Shown here piece after piece: positions 6,583 to 48,133 of a stretch of DNA of 64,000 nucleotides; within the stretch, counting starts at the first letter, position 1; the number at the start of each line of letters is the position of its first letter. The DNA lies in the NCBI GenBank assembly GCA_000004985.1, contig GG738846.1. The stretch is one strand, 5' to 3'. The notes under the pieces are model-generated. The model ran no database searches, was not told the origin of the DNA, and saw only the letters and a program-made list of their open reading frames with translations. Origin of the DNA: Naegleria gruberi. Lineage: Eukaryota. The translations under genes were made by a program, and so were the position numbers.

Positions 6583-9500
6583 CATGAGAGAGACACAACA
6601 TTTAATTGTAGAGACAGATAATGGTGGATTTCATATTATTAGCTCTCTTTCAAGAAGAAGAGACACACAAATAATAACTATCGAAAAGTATACTGGACAA
6701 TTGTTGTATACAGGTCATCCGGGTGTAGATCTTTTCTATTCTCCTCAAGATGCTCTCAAATTTCTGTCCAAAGATAAGAAGAATATAAAGAATGTAACGT
6801 AGGTAGTTTAAATAGAATGCAAGCATCATCATTACATTGACTATATAGAAAATGTCACTCAATCATTGGTTATACAGTAATTGGATCTTGTGGCTATTTA
6901 TTTATTTGTACAAAAGTTAGTTTGGATTTGGTACTTCCACCTAATCATCATGTTTATACAATAAGAGAAACTGAGACAATAACAATTCCACTCACCTATC
7001 CTCATCGTATCACTAAAGCAGAGGTTAAAAATTGTGAATTAATGACAGAGTTCCAATTGAAAGGCCTACATTTCTATTGTGAAACATATGACCTGACAAG
7101 ACCATTCCCATCAACCCATTCTCCCCAAGATTATACGGAAGAATTTTGTTGGAATATTCACTTGACGGAGAGTTTTAGAAAAATTAGAATGAGAAGTTGG
7201 TGTTGTGTTTTACTCCAAGGTGTTGCTAGATCATCAGGACCTGTCAAATGTAAAGAGAAGGATGAATATATTTTAAAAAGAGGAAGAGAAGCCCTTCTCA
7301 ATTTTAATGAACTATTAGATTCTGCCGAGGAGGTCAATTCTACTGAATCTATCGGTAATGTGAATTTGGCAATTATTTGTAGAAAGAGTTGCCTCAATCC
7401 AGGAACAAGATACAATGCAAGAGGATTGAATGACAAGTCAAGTCCTGGTAATGAATATGAATCAGAACAAATTTTATGGAGATCATATAATGGAAACATA
7501 ATGTTTAGTACTTTTGTTTGGAGAAGAGGCACTGTTCCTATCCACTGGAGAAGTGAACTCAATAATGCAGTACAAGATGCAAGTATTATCATTTCTGACA
7601 AACCCTATGAAAACATTGATGTATACTATAAGAGAATTGTTGATAGGTACAATAATCAACCTATCACTATTATTAATTTACTTCGTTCAAAAGAAATTCA
7701 CCCAGAAGAAGGAAATTTGACTCATCATTTTAGAGAATCCTTAAAGGTTGTTAAAAAGTTGATGGCCATAGATCAATTGGAAATGTTAGAATTTGATTGG
7801 CACACTCTTCATAAAACCGATGGTACTGAGAAAGCTGTAAAAAAGTTGTGGACCCTCGTTTCTCCAAAGTTAAGAGGTGCTGGTGTAACAACTGGTATAA
7901 TGAGAGTTTCATCTCATGGAACTGTTGTAGATATGAAGCTGTGGAAAAAACAAAGTGGTATTGTAAGAGTGAATTGTGCAGACTCTCTCGATAGAACCAA
8001 TCTCATTTGTTTTTTCAATTCCATTCAAGTTTTGGCAGAACAGTGTCGTCAACTTGGTGTTTCGCTTTGTGATCCATCAGGTGACTTTTCTGAGAGTTGG
8101 AAGAGTTTGGACTATACTCTTCAACAGGTAAAGGATGAGTTTGACTCTACTCTCCTTCTCAAATTGGCAGAAATTTATGTAAATGTTGGAGATGTATGTG
8201 CCACTCTTTATACTAATACGGTTGCAATGCATACTTCACCAATGCGTGAGTTTGCTCAACACTTAGGAGCTGCTCCTAACAATACCAAGCTCATTGTGGA
8301 GAGAAGAATTCAAAATGTTCTCAAGGACAAAATTCGTCAACAACAATACGAAATGTTTTTGGGTTTGAACTTGTCCAGATACTTTCCATCACATATTGTC
8401 AATACCAAGTATGGAGAATTGAGATATGTGAGTCACTATCCAACATTTATCTTTAAATCAGTTCCAAAAGAAATTCCATACAAGACAACAGAAGAGAGAG
8501 CTTTGATAAGAAGTGGATTTTCTCATCATTGGATTTGTCCAAGAGATTTTGATTTTATTGAAGTTCAAATTTACTTGCCATTCTATTGTAGAGTGACAGA
8601 GCTTGCTCTCACTATTAGACACGGTCTCAATGATTCAACTTCTCCTTCCAAGATGGATGTATTTGTTGGTACTCACCTTGATGATTGCCTTGTTGGTTTC
8701 CAAGAGCTTAACATTCCACGTTGTGAAGATGGAACTAAACTGATTTATACTTTACCTCCTCAAATTTCAGGAATTCCTGAAAACTCATCACTCTACGATT
8801 TTGAGGGAAGTGATGCAAGTTCAAAGATGAGAGTTGTAAGAATAATATTCTATGGCATCCCTCCTTGTAGTTGCATGACCATGGGTCAGATTCAAGTATT
8901 TGGTTCAGTTGACACACTTCTCAATCCATCTCAATCACCTAAGGAGTTTTATTTGGAACTTTTAAAGGCATCCTCTCAAAACGAAGTAGAACAAGTTCTG
9001 GATAATCTTGAAAAACAACAAGTTGAAGTTTCTAGAAGAAAAGCTGAGGAAATCAAGGTATTGGAAAAACAAGTTGAGAGGGAAGAAGAGGTCGAACGTA
9101 ATGAATCCTCCTTCAGTGACATTATTAAGGATGGTACAGCAGTTGAATTCACACAGGACCAAGAAGAAGAAGGAAGCAATACCGCTATTAGCTCCACAAG
9201 TAGTAGTAGTGTACCTACTAGCATTGTTGCCACTGACAATCCACAAAATGCCATTCTCATCGAAGATGTAACAAGCCAAGCCAAGATTAATGCCAATGCT
9301 TTGGATTCTATATTTGATGACTATTTTGAGAAGAGCAGAGAAAGTGGTACTGAAAGTTTGGAAAACTTCCTTCAAACCTCCAAATCAAACACTACTGCTA
9401 TCAAACTTGATGTCAAAGATAAACTGATAGAAATGATTAACAACCAGGATGAAACTTTGAGAGCTCTCAGAAATGACAAGTCGAGATCCCTTGAAAAGTA

Positions 9501-11016
9501 CTACAAGTTTGTACAAACCAAGGTTCCTACTACAACCTCAGAGATGAATTTTACAGACTCTTTAGAGTTGGAACTTGCTAGATTGAAGCTCTATATCAGT
9601 CCTCACGAAAGAGATAATCTTTTGGTAGAGAATAACTATAAGATTGACAAGTTCGATCCAAATCAATATATATATACCAGAGATTCCAAAGTAGAGAAAT
9701 CTATTAGAAAATCTATGGAAACCTCCACCTGTTCCATGTGTAAGACCAGCATCAAGCTGAGAAAATCTTCATGCCGCTACTGTAGACACTCATTCTGTAA
9801 AAACTGCATGTCCAAGTCAAAGTGTGAAATTATTGAATTCAACTGGAAGAATCCTTCATCAGTATGTATTGAATGCTCATCAACAATTGCCAAGCAAAAG
9901 GAAATGATTTCTGAAATTCAAGAACATATCACAATAGAATCTGGAAAATCCAAGCTTGCAACCAAGAATATTACTAGACTTTTTACTGAGCTCTATCCAC
10001 CAATTTCCCAATCAAGAAAAATGATGAAAAAACACGAGAAGGAAACCCTATGTTCAGAATTTCCAAGTAGTGGTATTTTAAGTTCTGTAGACACAGCTGC
10101 CAATTCACCACCAATAGAATCAATTCTCTTCCCACCTGACATTTTACCTTTGGAATATTGGTATGCCCCTCCTGGTATTGATACAGTTACCATCATTATT
10201 CTTTTACAATCATATGCTAAATTATCCAAGATGGTTCTTTTGGTTGACCAATTAGGTTACACACAGGATGATGCTCCAATATTTGATATTGCCATCGGTG
10301 AGAGGTTACCAACGTTTAAAAACATCACTAAATGGACTTTGGAAGCATCTAAAGCAAATGAAATGTTAGAATTCTCTTTCAATGGAGAGGGAACATCCAA
10401 CAATACTGACTTGTGTAGATTGGTAAGACTTACTGTAAAATTACCAGAAAGAGATCCATCTAACACTTCACCTCGTATTTTGCACATTGGAAGAATTTTA
10501 CTCTATGGAAAGGTTAATGATGATTCCTCTTCTCATCATGGTAATGATGCCTTAGAGACACTTGCTCCTAAGGAGCAGCAATATTTGGACGAAATACTTC
10601 GTGCCAAACCAACCATTCAAAGAGTTCAACTCAAGACTGAATCTAAATATGTTAAGGAGAGCAATTGCATTGATGTATCGTTGGCAGAAGTTGGAACCGT
10701 AGTGTCTGGCTTTAGAATTAACCTCACTCATACACAAGACACTATTCACTCACAAGTCAAACATATCAGAGTTAGCTTTTTATATGGTGAAAATGAAAAG
10801 AGTCTTGATGTTGCCTCACAAGTAATTGTTGAGAAAATTACTGTACCAAAGGTAGAACCAGGTGCTTCTCTCATTTTTGAATTTAATAAGAATTTCAACG
10901 TGGCTGTCAAGTTGGTAAGATTTGAGTTTTTGTCTAGTAAGTATTTTCTTTTCCAAATAATAATATTAATCATTCTTTTTATAATTCATTTGAACAGCTT
11001 ATGGATGTCATGTTAA
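6583..11016 (+). CDS. Large SAC-domain phosphoinositide phosphatase (~1450 aa) with a FYVE/RING-like Cys cluster and Ser/Thr-rich linkers.
   Basis: The Sac catalytic motif CX5R(T/S) is present as RVNCADSLDRTNLICFF, plus flanking Sac-domain blocks. A Sac-like N-terminal exon sits in ORF 6392..6802 (MRETQHLIVETDNGGFHIIS...). The Zn cluster is CSMCKTSIKLRKSSCRYCRHSFCKNCMS...CIECS. A terminal intron at 10938-10998 (GTAAGTATTTTC...TTGAACAG) gives the end ...VRFEFLSSLWMSC*. The junction between exon 1 and the 6922 exon could not be phased unambiguously. Confidence 0.75.
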
Positions 11017-11171
11017 TGATATTTCAATTCCTCAAATTTTCCTATTCTCAAACACTGTCCAATAAATTATTTATTTATTATTTTTGTTAACTAGAAAATA
11101 TTGTAACGTTCATATGAAATTTTCCCCACGAACAAATCAAAACAAATTGAATGACTGAAATTACAGATTTA

Positions 11172-13592
11172 TTAAAGTTCATCCTTTTCAACTGGTTCAG
11201 GCTTGACTTCTTCAGTCTTAACTTCTTCAACCTTCTTATTTTCCTTGGCAAGATTATTCTTATAGGCAAGTTGGGAATTTACACTAGCAATAATACGAGT
11301 AGCAAACTTGTTCTTTTCTTCAATGTCATAACCAGACAAGAGAGAAGCAGTGTCATAGACAAGGTTAATAGAGTTAGTCAATGAGTCATCGTTAACATTA
11401 TTCTTCAAGAGATCATTCATGTTTTGAATGATTGGGTGATTAGCATTGAGTTCCAAGGTTCTCAACTTCATCATCCAATCCATACCACCTTGTTCTTGTC
11501 CCAAAGCTTGAGCCTTCATAATTCTGGCCATGTTAGCAGAGACACCGAATGAGGAAGAAACCAAAACGGCTGGTGCAGAGGAGAGTCTATTAGAAATGGT
11601 AACCTTTGAAACCTTTTCCTTCAAGAGCATTTGAGCAATAGAAGTCAAAGTTTCAAATTCCTTAGTCAAGGATTCCAAATCCTTCTTCTTCTTTTCGAGA
11701 TCTTCATCTGGGAACTTGACATCTTCCTTAGCAATACTTTGAATCTTCATGCCTTGATATTCAGTAACTTGTTGAGTCATGTATTCATCCAATGGATCAA
11801 TCATGTAAATAACTTCCAAATCTCTAGTCTTGAATTCTTCCATGTGTGGAGAGGATTCAACTTCCTTCATATCCATACCAGAAATAAAGTAAATTTGTTC
11901 TTGCTTTTCCTTCTTTCTAGCAACATATTCGTCCAAACTAATTGATTCATTGGTCTTTGAAGTAGTGAAACGCAACATGGAGACAAGCTTTTTACGTTGC
12001 TTTTCATCTTCAATAACACCTAACTTGATGTTCTTTCCGAATTCCTTCCAGAACTTTTCATACTTGGTCAACTTGACTTCTTCCTTCTTTTCTTCACCTT
12101 CCTTAGATTCTTCCTTCTTTTCTTCTCTTTCCTTTCTTTCAGCCTTATCTTGTTCAGACAATTCGTGCAAGATTTGAATAGCCTTAGCCAACAACTTCTT
12201 CTTGATCATGGCCAACAACTTGCTATGTTGAAGAGTTTCTCTGGAAACATTGAGTGGTAAATCTTCAGAATCAACCAAACCCTTAATGAAATTCAAATAT
12301 CTTGGCAATAAATCTTCACCTTGATCAGTAATGAAAACTCTCTTGACGTACAACTTGATATTGTTAGTCTTTTGAGTGAAATCAAACATGTTGTATGGAG
12401 CCTTAGCTGGAACATACAAGAGTGACTTGAATTCAACTTGACCTTCAGCAGAGAACAAATCCCACATCATTGGATCTTCAGTAGCAGCAGTCATTGCTCT
12501 ATAGAATTGAATATATTCTTCTTCGGTAATGTTAGATGGTGATCTCAACCAGAGTGGCTTATTTTCATTCATAATATTCCATTCTTCAACAGTCTTTTCA
12601 ACCTTCTTGGTCTTTGGAGCAGCTGGAGTTTCTTCAGTCTTCTTTTCTTCTTCAACCTTAACTTCTTCAGTGGTTTCTGGAGTAGTGGTTTCTTCAGTAG
12701 TAGTTTCAGTAGTAGTTGTTGTTTCTTCTTCTTCAATTGGAACTTCTTCAGTTTCAGTTCTAACTTCGTGCAAGTAAATTGGGAAGTGGATGAATGAGCT
12801 GTACTTCTTGATCAATTCCTTCAATTTGGTGGCACTAGTGTAATCCTTAGCATCATCCTTCAAGTAGATGGTAATTTCACTACCTCTCTTCAAAGTATCA
12901 CCTCTTGGATCTTCAATAATAGTGAAAGTGTTATCAGCAGTACTAGTCCAGATCAATTGCTTGTCATCATTGTTTTTAGTGGTGACAACAACCTTTGAAG
13001 CAACCAAAAAGACAGAGTAGAAACCAACACCGAATTGACCAATCAAGGCAGAATCAGAAGTTTGAGCTTCCTTTTGGATCTTTTCAATAAAAGCCTTGGT
13101 TCCTGACTTGGCAATGGTACCCAAGTTATTAATCAAATCTTGCTTGGTCATACCAATACCAGAATCTCTAATCTTCAAAATATTGTTAGTGGTATCAGCC
13201 CAAACTCTAATTTCAAGTTCTGGATAGGCATTCAAAGCACTACTATCAGTCAAACTCAAGAATCTAATCTTGTTAAGAGCATCGGAGGCATTAGAAATTA
13301 ATTCTCTCAAGAAGATATCCTTGTTAGAGTAGAGTGAGTTAATAAGAATACCAAGCAATTGATTAATTTCAGCTTGGAATTGATGTTGTTCTTGTTGTGT
13401 GGATTGAGCGTTCAAAATTTGTTCCAATTCATCGGTAACTGTGGAGGTTGATCCAGCAGTGTTTGTATTTTCTACGGTAGGTTCTGTTGATGATGTTTCA
13501 GCACGAACTCCTCCCATCAGGAAGAGTTGGAAAGACAATGTACCCAACAATAACAAGACTAGGGTTAAACAAAGCACGGAATGTTTTCTCAT
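11172..13592 (-). CDS. grp94: Endoplasmin / GRP94 (ER-resident Hsp90 paralogue), apparently single exon.
   Basis: An 806 aa ORF. It has an N-terminal signal peptide (MRKHSVLCLTLVLLLLGTLSFQLFLMGG), the Hsp90 ATP-binding signatures (YSNKDIFLRELISNASDALNKIR, IGQFGVGFYS), a charged linker and the Hsp90 middle and C-terminal domains. It terminates in ...VEKDEL, a KDEL-type ER retrieval signal rather than the cytosolic MEEVD. Confidence 0.95.
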   Translation of the reverse strand: MRKHSVLCLTLVLLLLGTLSFQLFLMGGVRAETSSTEPTVENTNTAGSTSTVTDELEQILNAQSTQQEQHQFQAEINQLLGILINSLYSNKDIFLRELISNASDALNKIRFLSLTDSSALNAYPELEIRVWADTTNNILKIRDSGIGMTKQDLINNLGTIAKSGTKAFIEKIQKEAQTSDSALIGQFGVGFYSVFLVASKVVVTTKNNDDKQLIWTSTADNTFTIIEDPRGDTLKRGSEITIYLKDDAKDYTSATKLKELIKKYSSFIHFPIYLHEVRTETEEVPIEEEETTTTTETTTEETTTPETTEEVKVEEEKKTEETPAAPKTKKVEKTVEEWNIMNENKPLWLRSPSNITEEEYIQFYRAMTAATEDPMMWDLFSAEGQVEFKSLLYVPAKAPYNMFDFTQKTNNIKLYVKRVFITDQGEDLLPRYLNFIKGLVDSEDLPLNVSRETLQHSKLLAMIKKKLLAKAIQILHELSEQDKAERKEREEKKEESKEGEEKKEEVKLTKYEKFWKEFGKNIKLGVIEDEKQRKKLVSMLRFTTSKTNESISLDEYVARKKEKQEQIYFISGMDMKEVESSPHMEEFKTRDLEVIYMIDPLDEYMTQQVTEYQGMKIQSIAKEDVKFPDEDLEKKKKDLESLTKEFETLTSIAQMLLKEKVSKVTISNRLSSAPAVLVSSSFGVSANMARIMKAQALGQEQGGMDWMMKLRTLELNANHPIIQNMNDLLKNNVNDDSLTNSINLVYDTASLLSGYDIEEKNKFATRIIASVNSQLAYKNNLAKENKKVEEVKTEEVKPEPVEKDEL

Positions 13593-44126: not shown

Positions 44127-44820
44127 ATGGCTAAACACTTTCCTACTCAGTTTGGATCCACTTCTTCACGAGACGATTTTACTAACGATCTACACTTTGT
44201 AAAAGCATTCAAGAGGGAAGAAAAAAAAACACCATTATTCTGTGCGAATGATTTTCTCACATTACGAAATGGTGACGTTATTAAAATTAAAATTATTAAA
44301 GTATGTTGATGGATGAATTAATAATTCTAAACTAGAGTCGTACAGGGTGAGGAACTTGTAGTTTGTGATATAAATGGAAAGGCTGGTAAGTTTGGAATTT
44401 ATTGGTGTCAGTGTGTTTATCTTTTTGAAATTAATTTATGCAAATGGAATTACTTTGTTAGATCCATGGTAAGTTTGTAATTCATTGGTTAATGTTTATT
44501 TGGAATGAATTTGGAAAAGGTGTCAGATATATGTCAAGGGATTTAATGAAACACCCTCTACAAGTGTTGTTAAAAAGACTTTGAATCCTGTTTGGGATGA
44601 AAGTTTTTCATTTATAGTGACTGATAGTGAGCTTCTTTCTGTGGATATTGTATTTAGAGTGATGGATAGAGATATGTTTTCCGATGATTTTATGGGTCAA
44701 TCGGTTGTATATTTAACTAGGAAAGATTTTTCTCTGAATTGTTTCAAGAATTTCACTTTACCGTTGGTGGGTGTTGATCATGGATTGTTACACGTGTCAA
44801 TAGGTGTTTTTAGAGATTAA
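44127..44820 (+). CDS. C2-domain protein, four exons including a candidate 7-nt micro-exon.
   Basis: Exon 1 is 44127..44300 (...GDVIKIKIIK). Intron 44301..44343 (43 nt, GTATGTTGAT...GTACAG). Exon 2 is 44344..44384 (GEELVVCDINGKA). Intron 44385..44460. Micro-exon 44461..44467 (ATCCATG). Intron 44468..44518. Exon 4 is 44519..44820. Only with the micro-exon does the sequence read ...NGKADPWCQIYVKGFNETPSTSVVKKTLNPVWDESFSFIVTD...RVMDRDMFSDDFMGQ, a canonical C2 pattern (GKsDPYvkv...NPvWnE...D.D....D.iG). Direct splicing from 44384 to 44519 gives an in-frame TGA. Confidence 0.65.
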
Positions 44821-45401
44821 CAGATTATAGTTTTAGAAAATCATCCTTAATGTTAACTAATTTTACAAATACAACAATCTAACAATTTTAAGCAATATTT
44901 TATTAATACATTGGATGTAGATCAATTTGGCCTTCATCTGCAGAATCTGCCAAATTAAAGTATTTGGAAGCTGTATTAGGAGTACTCTTCATCATGGTCG
45001 TTCTCCTATTTTCACCAGCACTTGCTATGGAACTACTTGGGCTTGAACCTAGTTCTTCTTCGACAATGGTTTGGAAATCTTTTTGGTCAACCTGTATTCT
45101 TAATTGCTTCTTTTTAGGTATATCTTTTTTGTTAGGGATAACCTTATTCTTAGGTGTATTTTTTACAGAGGATTGATTTTGCCTAGTTGGTGGAGCAGAT
45201 GATGGCCTAGTACCTCTTTTCTCATTCTTTGGAAGAACGCTCTTATAGTAACCAACAACTCCAGCTGCCTTTTTCTTATTGAAATTATCTATTGGATGAG
45301 GATAAGAGTAGCCTTTTCCTTCCTTATTTACAACCATTGAATTTCTCTTTGTTTCCTCAGCAAATTCATCCAGCTCCTTATCAGGTAGAAACTCGTACTA
45401 T
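44600..45401. repeat. Segmental duplication copy 1 (~0.8 kb).
   Basis: Near-identical to 46182..46992, which starts immediately after the first N-gap. Only a few substitutions were seen, e.g. gctgtatTAggagt versus gctgtaCCaggagt. Confidence 0.85.
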
Positions 45402-45655
45402 TTGAATAATCAAAATCAATAACTTCATCTTGTTGTTCCATCTTTCTTCGTTGTTGATCCTCTCCCATTCTATTTAAACTCGATAGAACAGAAACCAAAG
45501 GTTTGGTTTTCATAACTGGTTCAACAAGACTGTTAGTCATTTATAAGAATACTATCAAAAACCCTTACTACTTACATTTCATCATCTTCTTCCACCAACA
45601 GTGGTTGCCAATTTTGCACTGCAGGGGCAACATATTCACTAGCTGGAGAAAACAT
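44903..45655 (-). CDS. Hypothetical basic Lys/Ser-rich protein, short paralogue (copy 1 of the duplicated segment), two exons.
   Basis: Exon 1 is 45655..~45575 (MFSPASEYVAPAVQNWQPLLVEEDDEM) with a GTAAGTAGTAAGG...CAAATAG intron. Exon 2 begins at 45401 (YEFLPDKELDEFAEETKRNSMVVNKEGKGYSYPHPIDNF...IDLHPMY*). Exon 2 is >98% identical to the 3' half of the 46494..47576 gene. Confidence 0.5.
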
Positions 45656-45872
45656 TTTTTTTAAATTTAAAAATGTAGATTTGAGGCGGGAAATTTTGGG
45701 CGCCAAACATTAATTGGTATATAAATAAAAAAAATGGTCAACAATCTGGTGCTTGTATCATAACAAAGTTGTTCTTCATTGGTTGATATTTCCTAATCCC
45801 AAAAGATAGCATTCATAACAATTGGTGGTATACCAGGGCGGAGTTTGTTTCAGGAATTATTAATCAAAAAAA

Positions 45873-46130
45873 ATGAAAGCCCCTGTCCTTGCTGTTTTCG
45901 TTCTGTTTTTGATGATGGTAATAGTTTCTGCTCGGAGCGCAGAAGGAAGAAGTAACAAACTATCATCTTCTCTTCTTCGTGATCGTAATATTGGTTACAA
46001 GAGAGATTTGGAAAAATTTCAAAGGAGAATTGACAGACTCAAAGAACAACTCGAGTTCTTTGCTGAAAGTGACAGTGAAGGTCTATCCGAAAGAGATTTC
46101 TTACGTAAATTTTACTTGTCAACTGGAGGT
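45873..46130 (+). CDS. Partial gene encoding a signal-peptide protein, truncated by the assembly gap.
   Basis: MKAPVLAVFVLFLMMVIVSARSAEG...QRRIDRLKEQLEFFAESDSEG runs into the N-run at 46131. A-rich leader (aaaaaaaatgaaag). Confidence 0.3.
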
Positions 46131-46181
46131 CNNNNNNNNNNNNNNNNNNNNNNNNNNNNNNNNNNNNNNNNNNNNNNNNNN
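46131..46181. other. Assembly gap (51 N).
   Basis: Run of n characters. Flanked on the right by sequence duplicating 44600 onward. Confidence 1.
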
Positions 46182-46992
46182 TTTGGGATGAAAGTTTTTC
46201 ATTTATAGTGACTGATAGTGAGCTTCTTTCTGTGGATATTGTATTTAGAGTGATGGATAGAGATATGTTNTCAGATGATTTTATGGGTCAATCGGTTGTA
46301 TATTTAACTAGGAAAGATTTTTCTCTGAATTGTTTCAAGAATTTCACTTTACCGTTGGTGGGTGTTGATCATGGATTGTTACACGTGTCAATAGGTGTTT
46401 TTAGAGATTAACAGATTATAGTTTTAGAAAATCATCCTTAATGTTAACTAATTTTACAAATACAACAATCTAACAATTTTAAGCAATATTTTATTAATAC
46501 ATTGGATGTAGATCAATTTGGCCTTCATCTGCAGAATCTGCCAAATTAAAGTATTTGGAAGCTGTACCAGGAGTACTCTTCATCATGGTCGTTCTCCTAT
46601 TTTCACCAGCACTTGCTATGGAACTACTTGGGCTTGAACCTAGTTCTTCTTCGACAATGGTTTGGAAATCTTTTTGGTCAACCTGTATTCTTAATTGCTT
46701 CTTTTTAGGTATATCTTTTTTGTTAGGGATAACCTTATTCTTAGGTGTATTTTTTACAGAGGATTGATTTTGCCTAGTTGGTGGAGCAGATGATGGCCTA
46801 GTACCTCTTTTCTCATTCTTTGGAAGAACGCTCTTATAGTAACCAACAACTCCAGCTGCCTTTTTCTTATTGAAATTATCTATTGGATGAGGATAAGAGT
46901 AGCCCTTTCCTTCCTTATTTACAACCATTGAATTTCTCTTTGTTTCCTCAGCAAATTCATCCAGCTCCTTATCAGGTAGAAACTCGTACATA
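46182..46992. repeat. Segmental duplication copy 2 (~0.8 kb), containing a second copy of the C2 gene's last exon (46182..46411, partial).
   Basis: It begins exactly at the gap edge. Identity with copy 1 ends at 46992/45401, where copy 2 continues as coding sequence (...DYMYEFLPDK) and copy 1 continues as intron (...caaatag|TACGAG). Confidence 0.85.
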
Positions 46993-47576
46993 TAATCAGG
47001 TATTCTTTCACTTGCAATTTTATAGTACTCTCTTGTCTTGGCTGTCAAATCTTTGATGGATTCTAGTTGATCCGCGAGAAGGGTAAACGTTGTTCTCTTA
47101 TCTCTTACAACTTGGTCATCATCAGGTATTTGAGAAAGTTGGGTGTGAATTTTGGAATAGGATAATTCAGCCATCTTTAACAATGAGTCGAGTTCTCCTG
47201 GTGTTGAAAGGGCAGCTACTTCATGTGGTTGTACATCTACTAGGGCTAGTTTTTTCTCTATTGGCAGAGGCTTTACTCTGAAGTAATTGAAATCTTGCAG
47301 AATTTCATTAAGGTAGTGATATGTCTTCGGTTTTAGAGGGGAGGACACTGATTTTCTCAGCTTGACTGATGCAGTCACCGTAGACTTTTGTCGTTTCTTC
47401 TCCTTCTTTCTTATGAGACGTTTCATTTTCATTTCAATTGCAAAGGCATCCTTCTTTTTGGCAAAAATTTCCTCAATATTATTCTTTAGATCCTTCTTTT
47501 TAAATTCCTCCTCTGCTATGGTTTTTTTCACTTCTATTGAAGGTATTTTCCTTCCCCTTTGTTTACTAGCGTCCAT
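46494..47576 (-). CDS. Hypothetical basic Lys-rich protein, long paralogue (360 aa).
   Basis: Continuous ORF MDASKQRGRKIPSIEVKK...ERIPDYMYEFLPDKELDEF...IDLHPMY*. Its 5' end abuts the second gap (47624..47673), so the start may be incomplete. Confidence 0.55.
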   Translation of the reverse strand: MDASKQRGRKIPSIEVKKTIAEEEFKKKDLKNNIEEIFAKKKDAFAIEMKMKRLIRKKEKKRQKSTVTASVKLRKSVSSPLKPKTYHYLNEILQDFNYFRVKPLPIEKKLALVDVQPHEVAALSTPGELDSLLKMAELSYSKIHTQLSQIPDDDQVVRDKRTTFTLLADQLESIKDLTAKTREYYKIASERIPDYMYEFLPDKELDEFAEETKRNSMVVNKEGKGYSYPHPIDNFNKKKAAGVVGYYKSVLPKNEKRGTRPSSAPPTRQNQSSVKNTPKNKVIPNKKDIPKKKQLRIQVDQKDFQTIVEEELGSSPSSSIASAGENRRTTMMKSTPGTASKYFNLADSADEGQIDLHPMY

Positions 47577-47623
47577 GGCCAGATCTGCGAGTATACTCTG
47601 ACTACCAATGGAAGTAGCAACTT

Positions 47624-47673
47624 NNNNNNNNNNNNNNNNNNNNNNNNNNNNNNNNNNNNNNNNNNNNNNNNNN
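47624..47673. other. Assembly gap (50 N).
   Basis: Run of n characters. Confidence 1.
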
Positions 47674-47935
47674 AACTGGAATTGCTGATTCTTTACAAAG
47701 TGTCATGATTATTAATTTGGCATTCAATGCAATTGGAGGTCAAATTCCAAAAGAGTATGGTGAAATACCCTCACTAACTGGAATCCATTTAGGAAGCAAT
47801 CATTTCGAAGGATTATTGCCTTCAGGTCTCTGCCGTGTATTGTCCTGTGACTGTTACAATAATCCAAAACTATTGTGCCCAGCCGATAATTGTAATAATA
47901 ACCATTGTAACATTACCTTTTTTCAAAATTTGTAA
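47674..47935 (+). CDS. C-terminal fragment of a plant-type LRR protein (NxLxGxIP repeats plus a Cys-rich end), truncated by the gap.
   Basis: ...INLAFNAIGGQIPKEYGEIPSLTGIHLGSNHFEGLLPSGLCRVLSCDCYNNPKLLCPADNCNNNHCNITFFQNL* opens directly after the N-run. Confidence 0.4.
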
Positions 47936-48133
47936 ATAATGGTGGTCAACTTGAGTATTTCATTTTCAGTAAATGGGATTGTCACAAAGTTTGCAATTTA
48001 CCAGAATTTTTTTTAAAAATGATAACAATTTTATCCTCAAAAAAGGACGTTAAGTGCCAACCTTAATACCTCAAGTTACTATTAAACAACACAGCTGTTA
48101 AAAAATGAACGATATAGAATTGAGATGAAAAGT

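What the first reader, a model, noticed from the sequence alone, without database searches (positions are those of the whole stretch)
44600..47673. Near-identical ~0.8 kb duplication bracketing an assembly gap. It yields a truncated and a full-length paralogue of a Lys-rich protein and a second copy of the C2 gene's terminal exon.
Sequence 46182..46992 starts exactly at the gap edge and is >98% identical to 44600..45401. Past the shared block the copies diverge completely (intron in copy 1, continuous coding in copy 2). This argues against a trivial overlap mis-join and favours either a recent tandem segmental duplication or collapsed/expanded haplotypes. The second gap at 47624..47673 lies just upstream. 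This region is the least reliable part of the window. It is also where new chimeric gene structures could have arisen, such as copy 1 gaining a new 5' exon MFSPASEYV....
Basis: seen in the sequence. Interest (0 to 1): 0.5.

Follow-up and report, generated by a model that had tools for sequence, protein, structure and literature searches.

The report
Haplotype mini-contig misplaced in scaffold gap
The 0.8-kb "duplication" is most likely an assembly artefact in the Naegleria gruberi reference genome: a small contig from the second haplotype was dropped into a scaffold gap. As a result, one ordinary gene is listed in the databases as two fragmentary "paralogues".

Summary
The repeat is real in the sequence. 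44591..45398 equals 46182..46989 (808 bp, 4 substitutions plus one N), and copy 2 starts at a 50-N gap. The window is the N. gruberi NEG-M reference scaffold, where the two copies are annotated as NAEGRDRAFT_61946 (144 aa) and 61947 (360 aa).

Three results argue against a biological duplication:
1. The 1,442-bp contig holding copy 2 (46182..47623) sits inside a leucine-rich-repeat (LRR) gene. The two halves of that gene end and start exactly at the two gaps. They are collinear with one 253-aa N. gruberi protein from a separate 8.7-kb scaffold, so only about 148 nt are truly missing there.
2. N. fowleri has one copy of the Lys-rich gene (about 860 aa), convergent with the same C2 gene.
3. The supposed "new 5' exon" MFSPASEYV... 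is the ancestral exon 1-2 of that gene (55% identity, E 5e-17). Homology stops exactly at the junction 45399|45398.

So contig 1 carries an internal deletion of the gene: 634 bp plus an unsequenced stretch, together about 1.8 kb by the N. fowleri yardstick. Contig 2 is a fragment of the undeleted allele. The layout matches a heterotype false duplication. The deletion is probably a real heterozygous allele, but no reads could be checked. Interest is low.

The parts
44591..45398 (.). Shared block, copy 1, internal to the long contig that ends at 46131. It holds the 3' 230 nt of the C2 gene, an 82-bp intergenic spacer, and the last 496 nt of the Lys-rich gene including its stop.
   Evidence: 808 bp, 99.4% identical to 46182..46989
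46182..46989 (.). Shared block, copy 2. It begins at the first base after gap 1.
46132..46181 (.). Gap 1 (50 N). It hides no demonstrated join between the LRR gene and copy 2.
47624..47673 (.). Gap 2 (50 N).
46182..47623 (.). The 1,442-bp mini-contig between the two gaps. It is interpreted as a fragment of the other haplotype that was placed inside the LRR gene by the scaffolder.
46990..47623 (-). Unique part of the mini-contig (B). It is the middle coding region of the Lys-rich gene, continuous with the shared block, and its frame is open to the gap edge.
   Evidence: aligns to N. fowleri P0005 aa 478-~668
46494..47576 (-). Database gene model NAEGRDRAFT_61947 (EFC50157.1, 360 aa). It starts at an internal Met of the fragment.
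   Evidence: 100% match
44903..45337 (-). Database gene model NAEGRDRAFT_61946 (EFC50156.1, 144 aa). It is the ORF left downstream of the deletion junction.
   Evidence: 100% match
45576..45655 (-). Exon 1 of the Lys-rich gene (MFSPASEYVAPAVQNWQPLLVEEDDE). It is followed by a canonical 46-nt intron, 45530..45575 (GTAAGT...ACTAACAG).
45399..45529 (-). Exon 2 of the Lys-rich gene (...KTKPLVSVLSSLNRMGEDQQRRKMEQQDEVIDFDYSN). Homology to the N. fowleri and N. lovaniensis orthologues ends at its last codons, which is the junction.
45398..45399 (-). Deletion junction in contig 1. On the minus strand it reads ...TCAAATA|GTACGAGTTTC..., where the undeleted copy reads ...GATTATAT|GTACGAGTTTC.... The assembled frame shifts and stops at 45328, giving a 93-aa product.
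44127..44820 (+). C2-domain gene, convergent with the Lys-rich gene. Exons: 44127-44300, 44346-44385, 44462-44468, 44520-44820.
   Evidence: synteny with N. fowleri
45873..46131 (+). LRR gene, first 86 codons. It ends at gap 1; base 46131 (C) fits the first base of the next codon (His87) of P0001.
47674..47935 (+). LRR gene, C-terminal part. It starts at gap 2; base 47674 (A) fits the third base of Pro136 of P0001.

Best explanation
The apparent duplication is a heterotype false duplication in the Sanger-era N. gruberi NEG-M reference assembly.

The real locus has one C2 gene and one convergent Lys-rich gene of roughly 800 aa. That gene has exon 1, exon 2, a short intron and one large last exon. 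An LRR gene diverges from its 5' end.

The two haplotypes differ structurally here. The haplotype in the main contig lacks an internal segment of the Lys-rich gene, running from the end of exon 2 to 496 nt before the end of the coding sequence (stop codon included). The lost segment is 634 bp (B) plus an unsequenced stretch (X). By the N. fowleri yardstick the total is about 1.8 kb.

Reads from the undeleted haplotype could not be merged across that junction. They formed a separate 1,442-bp contig (shared block plus B). The scaffolder could not nest this contig inside the long contig, so it put it in the nearest gap. That gap is a break of about 148 nt in the LRR gene, and the contig was flanked by two placeholder 50-N gaps. 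Automatic annotation then called two 'predicted proteins' from the two fragments.

Shown: the identity of the block, the organism and gene models, collinearity of the LRR halves with one protein, single-copy synteny in N. fowleri, and the ancestral nature of exons 1-2 with homology ending at the junction.

Inferred: that the two copies are alleles, that the deletion is a real heterozygous allele rather than a chimeric join, and the scaffolder's behaviour.
For: 1; the window carries exact copies of two adjacent N. gruberi NEG-M gene models (EFC50156.1 and EFC50157.1) on a 1,001,995-bp scaffold.
2; the LRR protein P0001 (EFC35711.1, 253 aa, on a separate 8,656-bp scaffold) matches 45873..46130 with aa 1-86 (97.7%) and 47675..47914 with aa 137-216 (98.8%). 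Both matches run right up to the gap edges, and the edge bases fit the adjacent codons. Only about 148 nt are therefore missing where the scaffold shows 1,542 nt.
3. Neither end of the mini-contig is joined by sequence to its neighbours.
4. N. fowleri has a single orthologue (814-859 aa models), with exon 2, a 59-nt intron and a large exon. It is convergent with the C2 orthologue.
5; exons 1-2 upstream of copy 1 are orthologous to P0005 aa 12-65 (55% identity, E 5e-17). Homology ends at DYSN, exactly at 45399.
6; the unique part of the mini-contig continues the orthologue alignment without a break across 46989/46990, so copy 2 keeps the ancestral arrangement.
7; the few differences are SNP-like. 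Two of the three events are synonymous: TCC/TCA in the C2 gene and AAA/AAG in the Lys-rich gene.
8. P0001 also differs from the window by substitutions and an indel of about 89 nt. Two diverged haplotypes of this neighbourhood were therefore assembled separately.
9. N. gruberi is reported as a heterozygous diploid with mosaic heterozygosity (PMC9928731; PMC6201504).
10. False duplications separated by gaps on one scaffold, most frequent in Sanger assemblies and producing false gene gains, are a described class (PMC9516828).
Against: - No reads, depth or mate-pair data could be examined, so allelism is inferred.
- The 8,656-bp scaffold could not be fetched. Whether it carries the missing part of the gene is unknown.
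- No N. gruberi sequence for the missing stretch X was found, so the deletion size is an estimate from N. fowleri.
- The same linear layout would also arise from a true tandem duplication of a unit of about 3.5 kb followed by a deletion in the first copy.
- That 50 N is a placeholder for an unmeasured or negative gap is my assumption.
Confidence: 0.62

Rival explanations
1. This is also an assembly artefact, but with no real deletion. Both haplotypes carry the intact gene. The join 45398|45399 in the long contig would be a chimeric or mis-assembled join, for example from a rearranged clone. The mini-contig would be the leftover of the correct path.
For: - The mini-contig keeps the ancestral, continuous arrangement.
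- The junction lies at the exon 2 end, where N. fowleri has the donor GTACGT, and the shared block begins with GTACGAG. A short shared motif might therefore have helped a false join.
- The mini-contig shows low-quality signs: an N at 46270 and a mismatch 3 nt away.
Against: - With Sanger reads, a false join on a motif of 5-7 nt is not expected.
- If both haplotypes were intact, the undeleted path would have full coverage and should have become the main contig. Instead it is fragmented.
- The copies differ at SNP-like, mostly synonymous sites.
- The neighbourhood shows other haplotype differences.
Confidence: 0.2
2. The mini-contig comes from a recent paralogous copy of the C2/Lys-rich region elsewhere in the genome. 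It was pulled into this scaffold because of the shared 808 bp. The local gene would be truncated in both haplotypes.
For: The placement of the mini-contig is unsupported by sequence. The block is 99.4% identical.
Against: - N. fowleri has one copy, in the same C2-convergent context that the mini-contig preserves.
- This reading needs a duplication plus a deletion of the original.
- Only two N. gruberi models contain the block, both on this scaffold.
Confidence: 0.08
3. This is a real recent tandem duplication of a unit of about 3.5 kb, from the C2 last exon to the middle of the LRR gene, followed by a deletion in the first copy. The scaffold order would be correct, and the gaps would hide the duplication junction and about 2 kb of the second copy.
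For: The order and orientation of the pieces in the scaffold fit this layout. The copies differ at a few sites.
Against: - It needs two events where one suffices.
- No duplication junction is sequenced.
- The sequences after the two blocks are unrelated, so a simple tandem repeat is excluded.
- Both gaps are 50-N placeholders, although about 2 kb would be hidden in the second.
- A separate scaffold shows the LRR gene uninterrupted.
- Gap-flanked duplicates on one scaffold are the hallmark of false duplications in Sanger assemblies (PMC9516828).
Confidence: 0.07

Closest known systems
Heterotype false duplication in a genome assembly (Ko et al. 2022, Genome Biol 23:205, PMC9516828)
   Same: Two near-identical copies lie on one scaffold, separated by an assembly gap. 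The copies differ at a few haplotype-like sites. The source is a Sanger-era assembly of a heterozygous diploid. The result is a false gene gain (two annotated 'proteins') and foreign exons inserted into another gene (C2/Lys-rich fragment inside the LRR gene, like the ALDH2 exons in ACAD10 in that paper).
   Different: The trigger here appears to be a structural difference between haplotypes (an internal deletion of a gene) rather than merely raised SNP density. Read depth, k-mer and read-pair criteria could not be tested.
Heterozygous deletion (loss-of-function) allele in a clonally propagated diploid protist
   Same: One haplotype lacks an internal part of a gene and is frameshifted, giving a 93-aa product. 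The other keeps the ancestral open frame.
   Different: Neither the heterozygous state nor the breakpoint microhomology could be verified without the undeleted exon 2/intron 2 sequence of N. gruberi.
Recent tandem segmental duplication creating chimeric genes
   Same: Two copies in the same orientation about 1.6 kb apart, with different sequence upstream of the shared coding block.
   Different: No sequenced duplication junction. The flanks after the blocks are unrelated. Copy 2 interrupts a gene that is intact on another scaffold. The 'new' exons are the ancestral ones.

Membership tests
Heterotype false duplication (assembly artefact) | Assembly gap between the duplicated pair on the same scaffold | tested here: met
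   The 50-N gap 46132..46181 abuts copy 2. A second 50-N gap closes the mini-contig.
Heterotype false duplication (assembly artefact) | Copies differ at haplotype-specific sites (single-copy heterozygous k-mers) | tested here: inconclusive
   There are 4 substitutions in 808 bp, and two of the three events are synonymous. Without reads they cannot be shown to be allelic.
Heterotype false duplication (assembly artefact) | Haploid-level read depth over each copy | not testable with these tools
   No read data. No N. gruberi assemblies or reads are on record in the look-up collections.
Heterotype false duplication (assembly artefact) | Discordant read pairs, or an independent assembly lacking the duplication | tested here: inconclusive
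   Indirect support only. A separate N. gruberi scaffold encodes the LRR gene uninterrupted across the place where the mini-contig sits, and N. fowleri has a single copy. Neither is an independent assembly of this exact locus in NEG-M.
True tandem duplication | Head-to-tail units: the sequence following copy 2 repeats the sequence following copy 1 | tested here: not met
   45399.. and 46990.. are unrelated.
True tandem duplication | A sequenced novel junction joining the end of unit 1 to the start of unit 2 | tested here: not met
   The place where it would lie is gap 1. Copy 2 begins at the gap edge.
Processed (retro)copy | Copy limited to one transcript, introns removed, poly(A) tail | tested here: not met
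   The block spans the 3' ends of two convergent genes plus the intergenic spacer. Neither the N. gruberi mini-contig nor N. fowleri has an intron at 46989/46990.
Microhomology-mediated deletion allele | Short identical sequence at both breakpoints of the undeleted allele | tested here: inconclusive
   The distal breakpoint reads AT|GTACGAG. The N. fowleri intron-2 donor is GTACGT.

The most novel reading that the evidence does not exclude
The scaffold order is correct, and NEG-M carries a very recent tandem duplication of about 3.5 kb (C2 3' end to mid-LRR gene). Its first copy has since lost the middle of the Lys-rich gene. That would give a truncated gene fused out of frame to its own first two exons, plus a truncated LRR gene copy. 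It would be a snapshot of gene birth and decay by duplication and deletion in a clonal amoeba.
Probability: 0.07. Interest if true: 0.25.

Novelty: not a real feature. Interest (0 to 1): 0.08.

Why it matters
The value is mainly practical. Two RefSeq/UniProt entries (XP_002682900.1/D2UZI2, 144 aa, and XP_002682901.1/D2UZI3, 360 aa) are fragments of one Naegleria-specific gene of roughly 800 aa. The LRR gene on this scaffold is broken by a misplaced contig. Gene-family counts, orthology tables and pangenome analyses that use the NEG-M proteome inherit a false gene gain here and miss a full-length gene. If the deletion allele is real, it is an ordinary example of a heterozygous loss-of-function structural variant in a clonally grown diploid protist.

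Tried and rejected
- **Word-index homology search, Lys-rich protein.** It found nothing. This was a false negative, because phmmer over all cluster representatives found P0002 and the N. fowleri orthologue.
- **Pfam.** No domain in the Lys-rich protein or its 859-aa orthologue.
- **Exact-product look-ups.** The 360-aa and 144-aa ORFs, P0001 and three other window ORFs are not on record. No second N. gruberi assembly and not the 8,656-bp scaffold could be fetched.
- **Chimeric query: N. gruberi exons 1-2 plus the N. fowleri middle region.** It returned only N. fowleri and N. lovaniensis proteins. No annotated N. gruberi protein contains the missing part.
- **Metagenome scan for relatives.** Nothing found.
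- **N. gruberi genome paper and a review.** Not held in the library. Heterozygosity is cited second-hand.
- **Retrocopy or cDNA origin of copy 2.** Rejected, because the block spans two convergent genes and the spacer between them.
- **A 26-nt intron (GTTATT...AATAG) that would restore the frame in copy 1.** Rejected. It is far shorter than the 45-76-nt introns seen here, and it would delete conserved exon-2 residues.
- **Repeat or transposon family.** Rejected, because there are only two copies in the window.
Full report
**1. Observation**

At a constant offset of 1591 nt, window 44591..45398 equals 46182..46989. The block is 808 bp. There are four substitutions (44682 C/A, 44976-44977 TT/CC, 45314 T/C) and one N at 46270. 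blastn gives 99.4% identity, and there is no third copy in the 64 kb.

The window has only three N runs: 46132..46181 (50), 46270 (1) and 47624..47673 (50). Copy 2 therefore starts at the first base of a 1,442-bp contig (46182..47623) that lies between two 50-N gaps. I call it the mini-contig.

Beyond 45398/46989 the two copies are unrelated. Two small corrections apply: 46182 pairs with 44591, and the block ends at 45398/46989.

**2. Source and database models**

phmmer against cluster representatives found a 144-aa protein identical to the ORF 45337..44906. The cluster look-up names it EFC50156.1 / NAEGRDRAFT_61946 of Naegleria gruberi. Its cluster mate is EFC50157.1 / NAEGRDRAFT_61947 (360 aa), which matches 47576..46497 at 100%. 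Both are on a 1,001,995-bp scaffold.

The window is therefore the NEG-M reference assembly. The two copies are already annotated as two adjacent 'predicted proteins'.

**3. The mini-contig sits inside another gene**

On the + strand an ORF with a signal peptide starts at 45873 and runs into gap 1. Another open frame runs out of gap 2 (47675..47935) and has LRR motifs.

A query made of both pieces hit one N. gruberi protein, P0001 (EFC35711.1, 253 aa, on a separate 8,656-bp scaffold):
- Its residues 1-86 match 45873..46130 (97.7%).
- Its residues 137-216 match 47675..47914 (98.8%).
- The single bases at the gap edges fit its codons. C at 46131 fits His87, and A at 47674 fits Pro136.

About 148 nt are therefore missing between 46131 and 47674, while the scaffold shows 1,542 nt there. 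Neither end of the mini-contig is connected by sequence to its neighbours.

**4. What the Lys-rich gene really looks like**

The same phmmer search found an N. fowleri protein of 814 aa (P0003). Its cluster mates are 859 aa (P0005) and 783 aa.

A 14.5-kb N. fowleri contig (L001) shows the following structure:

| Feature | L001 coordinates |
|---|---|
| Exon 1 | 8896..8963 |
| Exon 2 (donor GTACGT) | 9020..9154 |
| Intron 2 (59 nt) | 9155..9213 |
| Large last exon | 9214..11590 |
| Convergent C2-domain gene (minus strand) | 12609..11714 |

The pair 'C2 gene facing the 3' end of a single, long Lys-rich gene' is therefore ancestral.

The mini-contig keeps this arrangement. Its open frame aligns to P0005 residues 478-859 without a break across 46989/46990. 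It is still open at the gap edge 47623.

**5. What lies upstream of copy 1**

On the minus strand the structure is:
- An ATG at 45655 opens an 80-nt exon.
- A canonical 46-nt intron follows (GTAAGT...ACTAACAG, 45575..45530).
- A 131-nt exon ends at 45399.

The encoded 70 aa (MFSPASEYVAPAVQNWQPLLVEEDDEILVEPVMKTKPLVSVLSSLNRMGEDQQRRKMEQQDEVIDFDYSN) align to P0005 residues 12-65 with 55% identity (E 5e-17). They align to the N. lovaniensis orthologue as well.

Homology ends at DYSN(S/T), exactly at the junction. In the relatives the protein continues VHSVLNCFKKRMNVIEE....

These are therefore the gene's own first two exons, not a new 5' exon. In the long contig they are joined directly to the last 496 nt of the coding sequence, in the wrong frame. 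The assembled product is 93 aa and stops at 45328.

Relative to the ancestral gene, the long contig lacks three pieces:
- intron 2;
- a middle stretch X, about 380 aa in N. fowleri, with no trace in the window;
- the 634 bp B that the mini-contig carries.

**6. Interpretation**

One structural difference explains everything. One haplotype carries an internal deletion of the Lys-rich gene, and the other is intact.
- Reads of the intact haplotype that cross from the shared block into B could not be merged into the long contig, so they formed the mini-contig.
- The scaffolder placed the mini-contig in the nearest gap, which is the small break in the LRR gene.

The layout matches the described class of heterotype false duplications. 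In that class the duplicates lie on one scaffold, are separated by gaps, are most frequent in Sanger assemblies of heterozygous genomes, and cause false gene gains and foreign exons inside other genes (PMC9516828).

Several points support allelism:
- The differences are few and SNP-like: TCC/TCA (synonymous, C2 gene), AAA/AAG (synonymous, Lys-rich gene) and AAT/GGT.
- P0001 differs from the window by three residues (two in its N-terminal match, one in its C-terminal match) and by an indel of about 89 nt at the LRR 3' end. Two diverged haplotypes of this neighbourhood were therefore assembled apart.
- Naegleria is described as a heterozygous diploid, and N. gruberi as showing mosaic heterozygosity (PMC9928731; PMC6201504).

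**7. Is the deletion real?**

This is inferred, not shown. I favour a real heterozygous allele for two reasons. The deleted path became the main contig, while the intact path is fragmented and of lower quality (an N, contig breaks). That pattern is expected if each path has haploid coverage. A single chimeric clone would not normally outcompete a full-coverage path.

The breakpoint reads ...TCAAATA|GTACGAG..., where the intact copy has ...GATTATAT|GTACGAG.... The N. fowleri intron-2 donor is GTACGT. A GTACG microhomology is therefore possible but untested.

**8. Rivals**

- No real deletion, with a chimeric join in contig 1 (0.20).
- A misplaced paralogous contig from elsewhere (0.08).
- A true tandem duplication of about 3.5 kb followed by a deletion in copy 1 (0.07). 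This gives the same linear order, but it needs two events and an unseen junction.

A simple tandem repeat is excluded, because the sequences after the two blocks differ. A retrocopy is excluded, because the block spans two convergent genes and their spacer.

**9. Limits**

- No read data were available.
- The 8,656-bp scaffold and any other N. gruberi assembly could not be retrieved.
- The middle part of the gene in N. gruberi was not found.
- The first word-index search was a false negative.

**10. Verdict**

The sequence observation is correct. The biological reading as a duplication that creates paralogues or chimeric genes is most likely wrong. This is an assembly and annotation artefact caused by haplotype structure. 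It is of low scientific interest, but it is worth correcting in the databases.

Noticed in passing
window 44386..44519 (+), C2 gene: The C2-domain gene needs a 7-nt micro-exon (ATCCATG, 44462..44468) to encode the conserved GKADPW motif. With it, the 173-aa model hits Pfam C2 at E 5.8e-19. The two introns flanking it (76 and 51 nt) are clearly alike: 19 of their first 21 nt are identical, and 0 of 2000 shuffles reach the alignment score. N. fowleri has a single intron at this place. This looks like an intron gained by a local duplication.
   Followed up: partly
window 47900..47940 (+), LRR gene 3' end: The N. gruberi protein P0001, from a separate 8,656-bp scaffold, has 32 extra Cys-rich residues (MAVCNCGG...NGSP) between NNNHCN and FFKICK*. 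The window has only 6 nt there. This is an indel of about 89 nt that shifts the frame, so the window ORF ends ITFFQNL*. It is a second structural difference between the two versions of this neighbourhood.
   Followed up: partly
window 46270..46273: A single N and a mismatch 3 nt away lie about 90 nt into the mini-contig. This suggests low coverage or low quality at its start.
   Followed up: no
L001 8896..11590 (N. fowleri orthologue): Public N. fowleri gene models for the orthologue disagree. The 814-aa model skips the 135-nt exon 2. The 859-aa model includes it. Two 783-aa calls start at an internal Met. The N. lovaniensis model (341 aa) appears truncated, with an unrelated tail.
   Followed up: partly
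window 45656..45872: The Lys-rich gene and the LRR gene are divergent. Only 217 bp separate their start codons, so they probably share a bidirectional promoter region. In N. fowleri the upstream neighbour is a different gene (B-box/MATH), so synteny holds on the C2 side only.
   Followed up: no
tool behaviour, vs 20: The word-index protein search returned no hit for the Lys-rich query, although an identical 144-aa protein and a 41%-identical orthologue are in the collection. Negative results of that tool for low-complexity, Lys-rich queries should not be trusted.
   Followed up: yes
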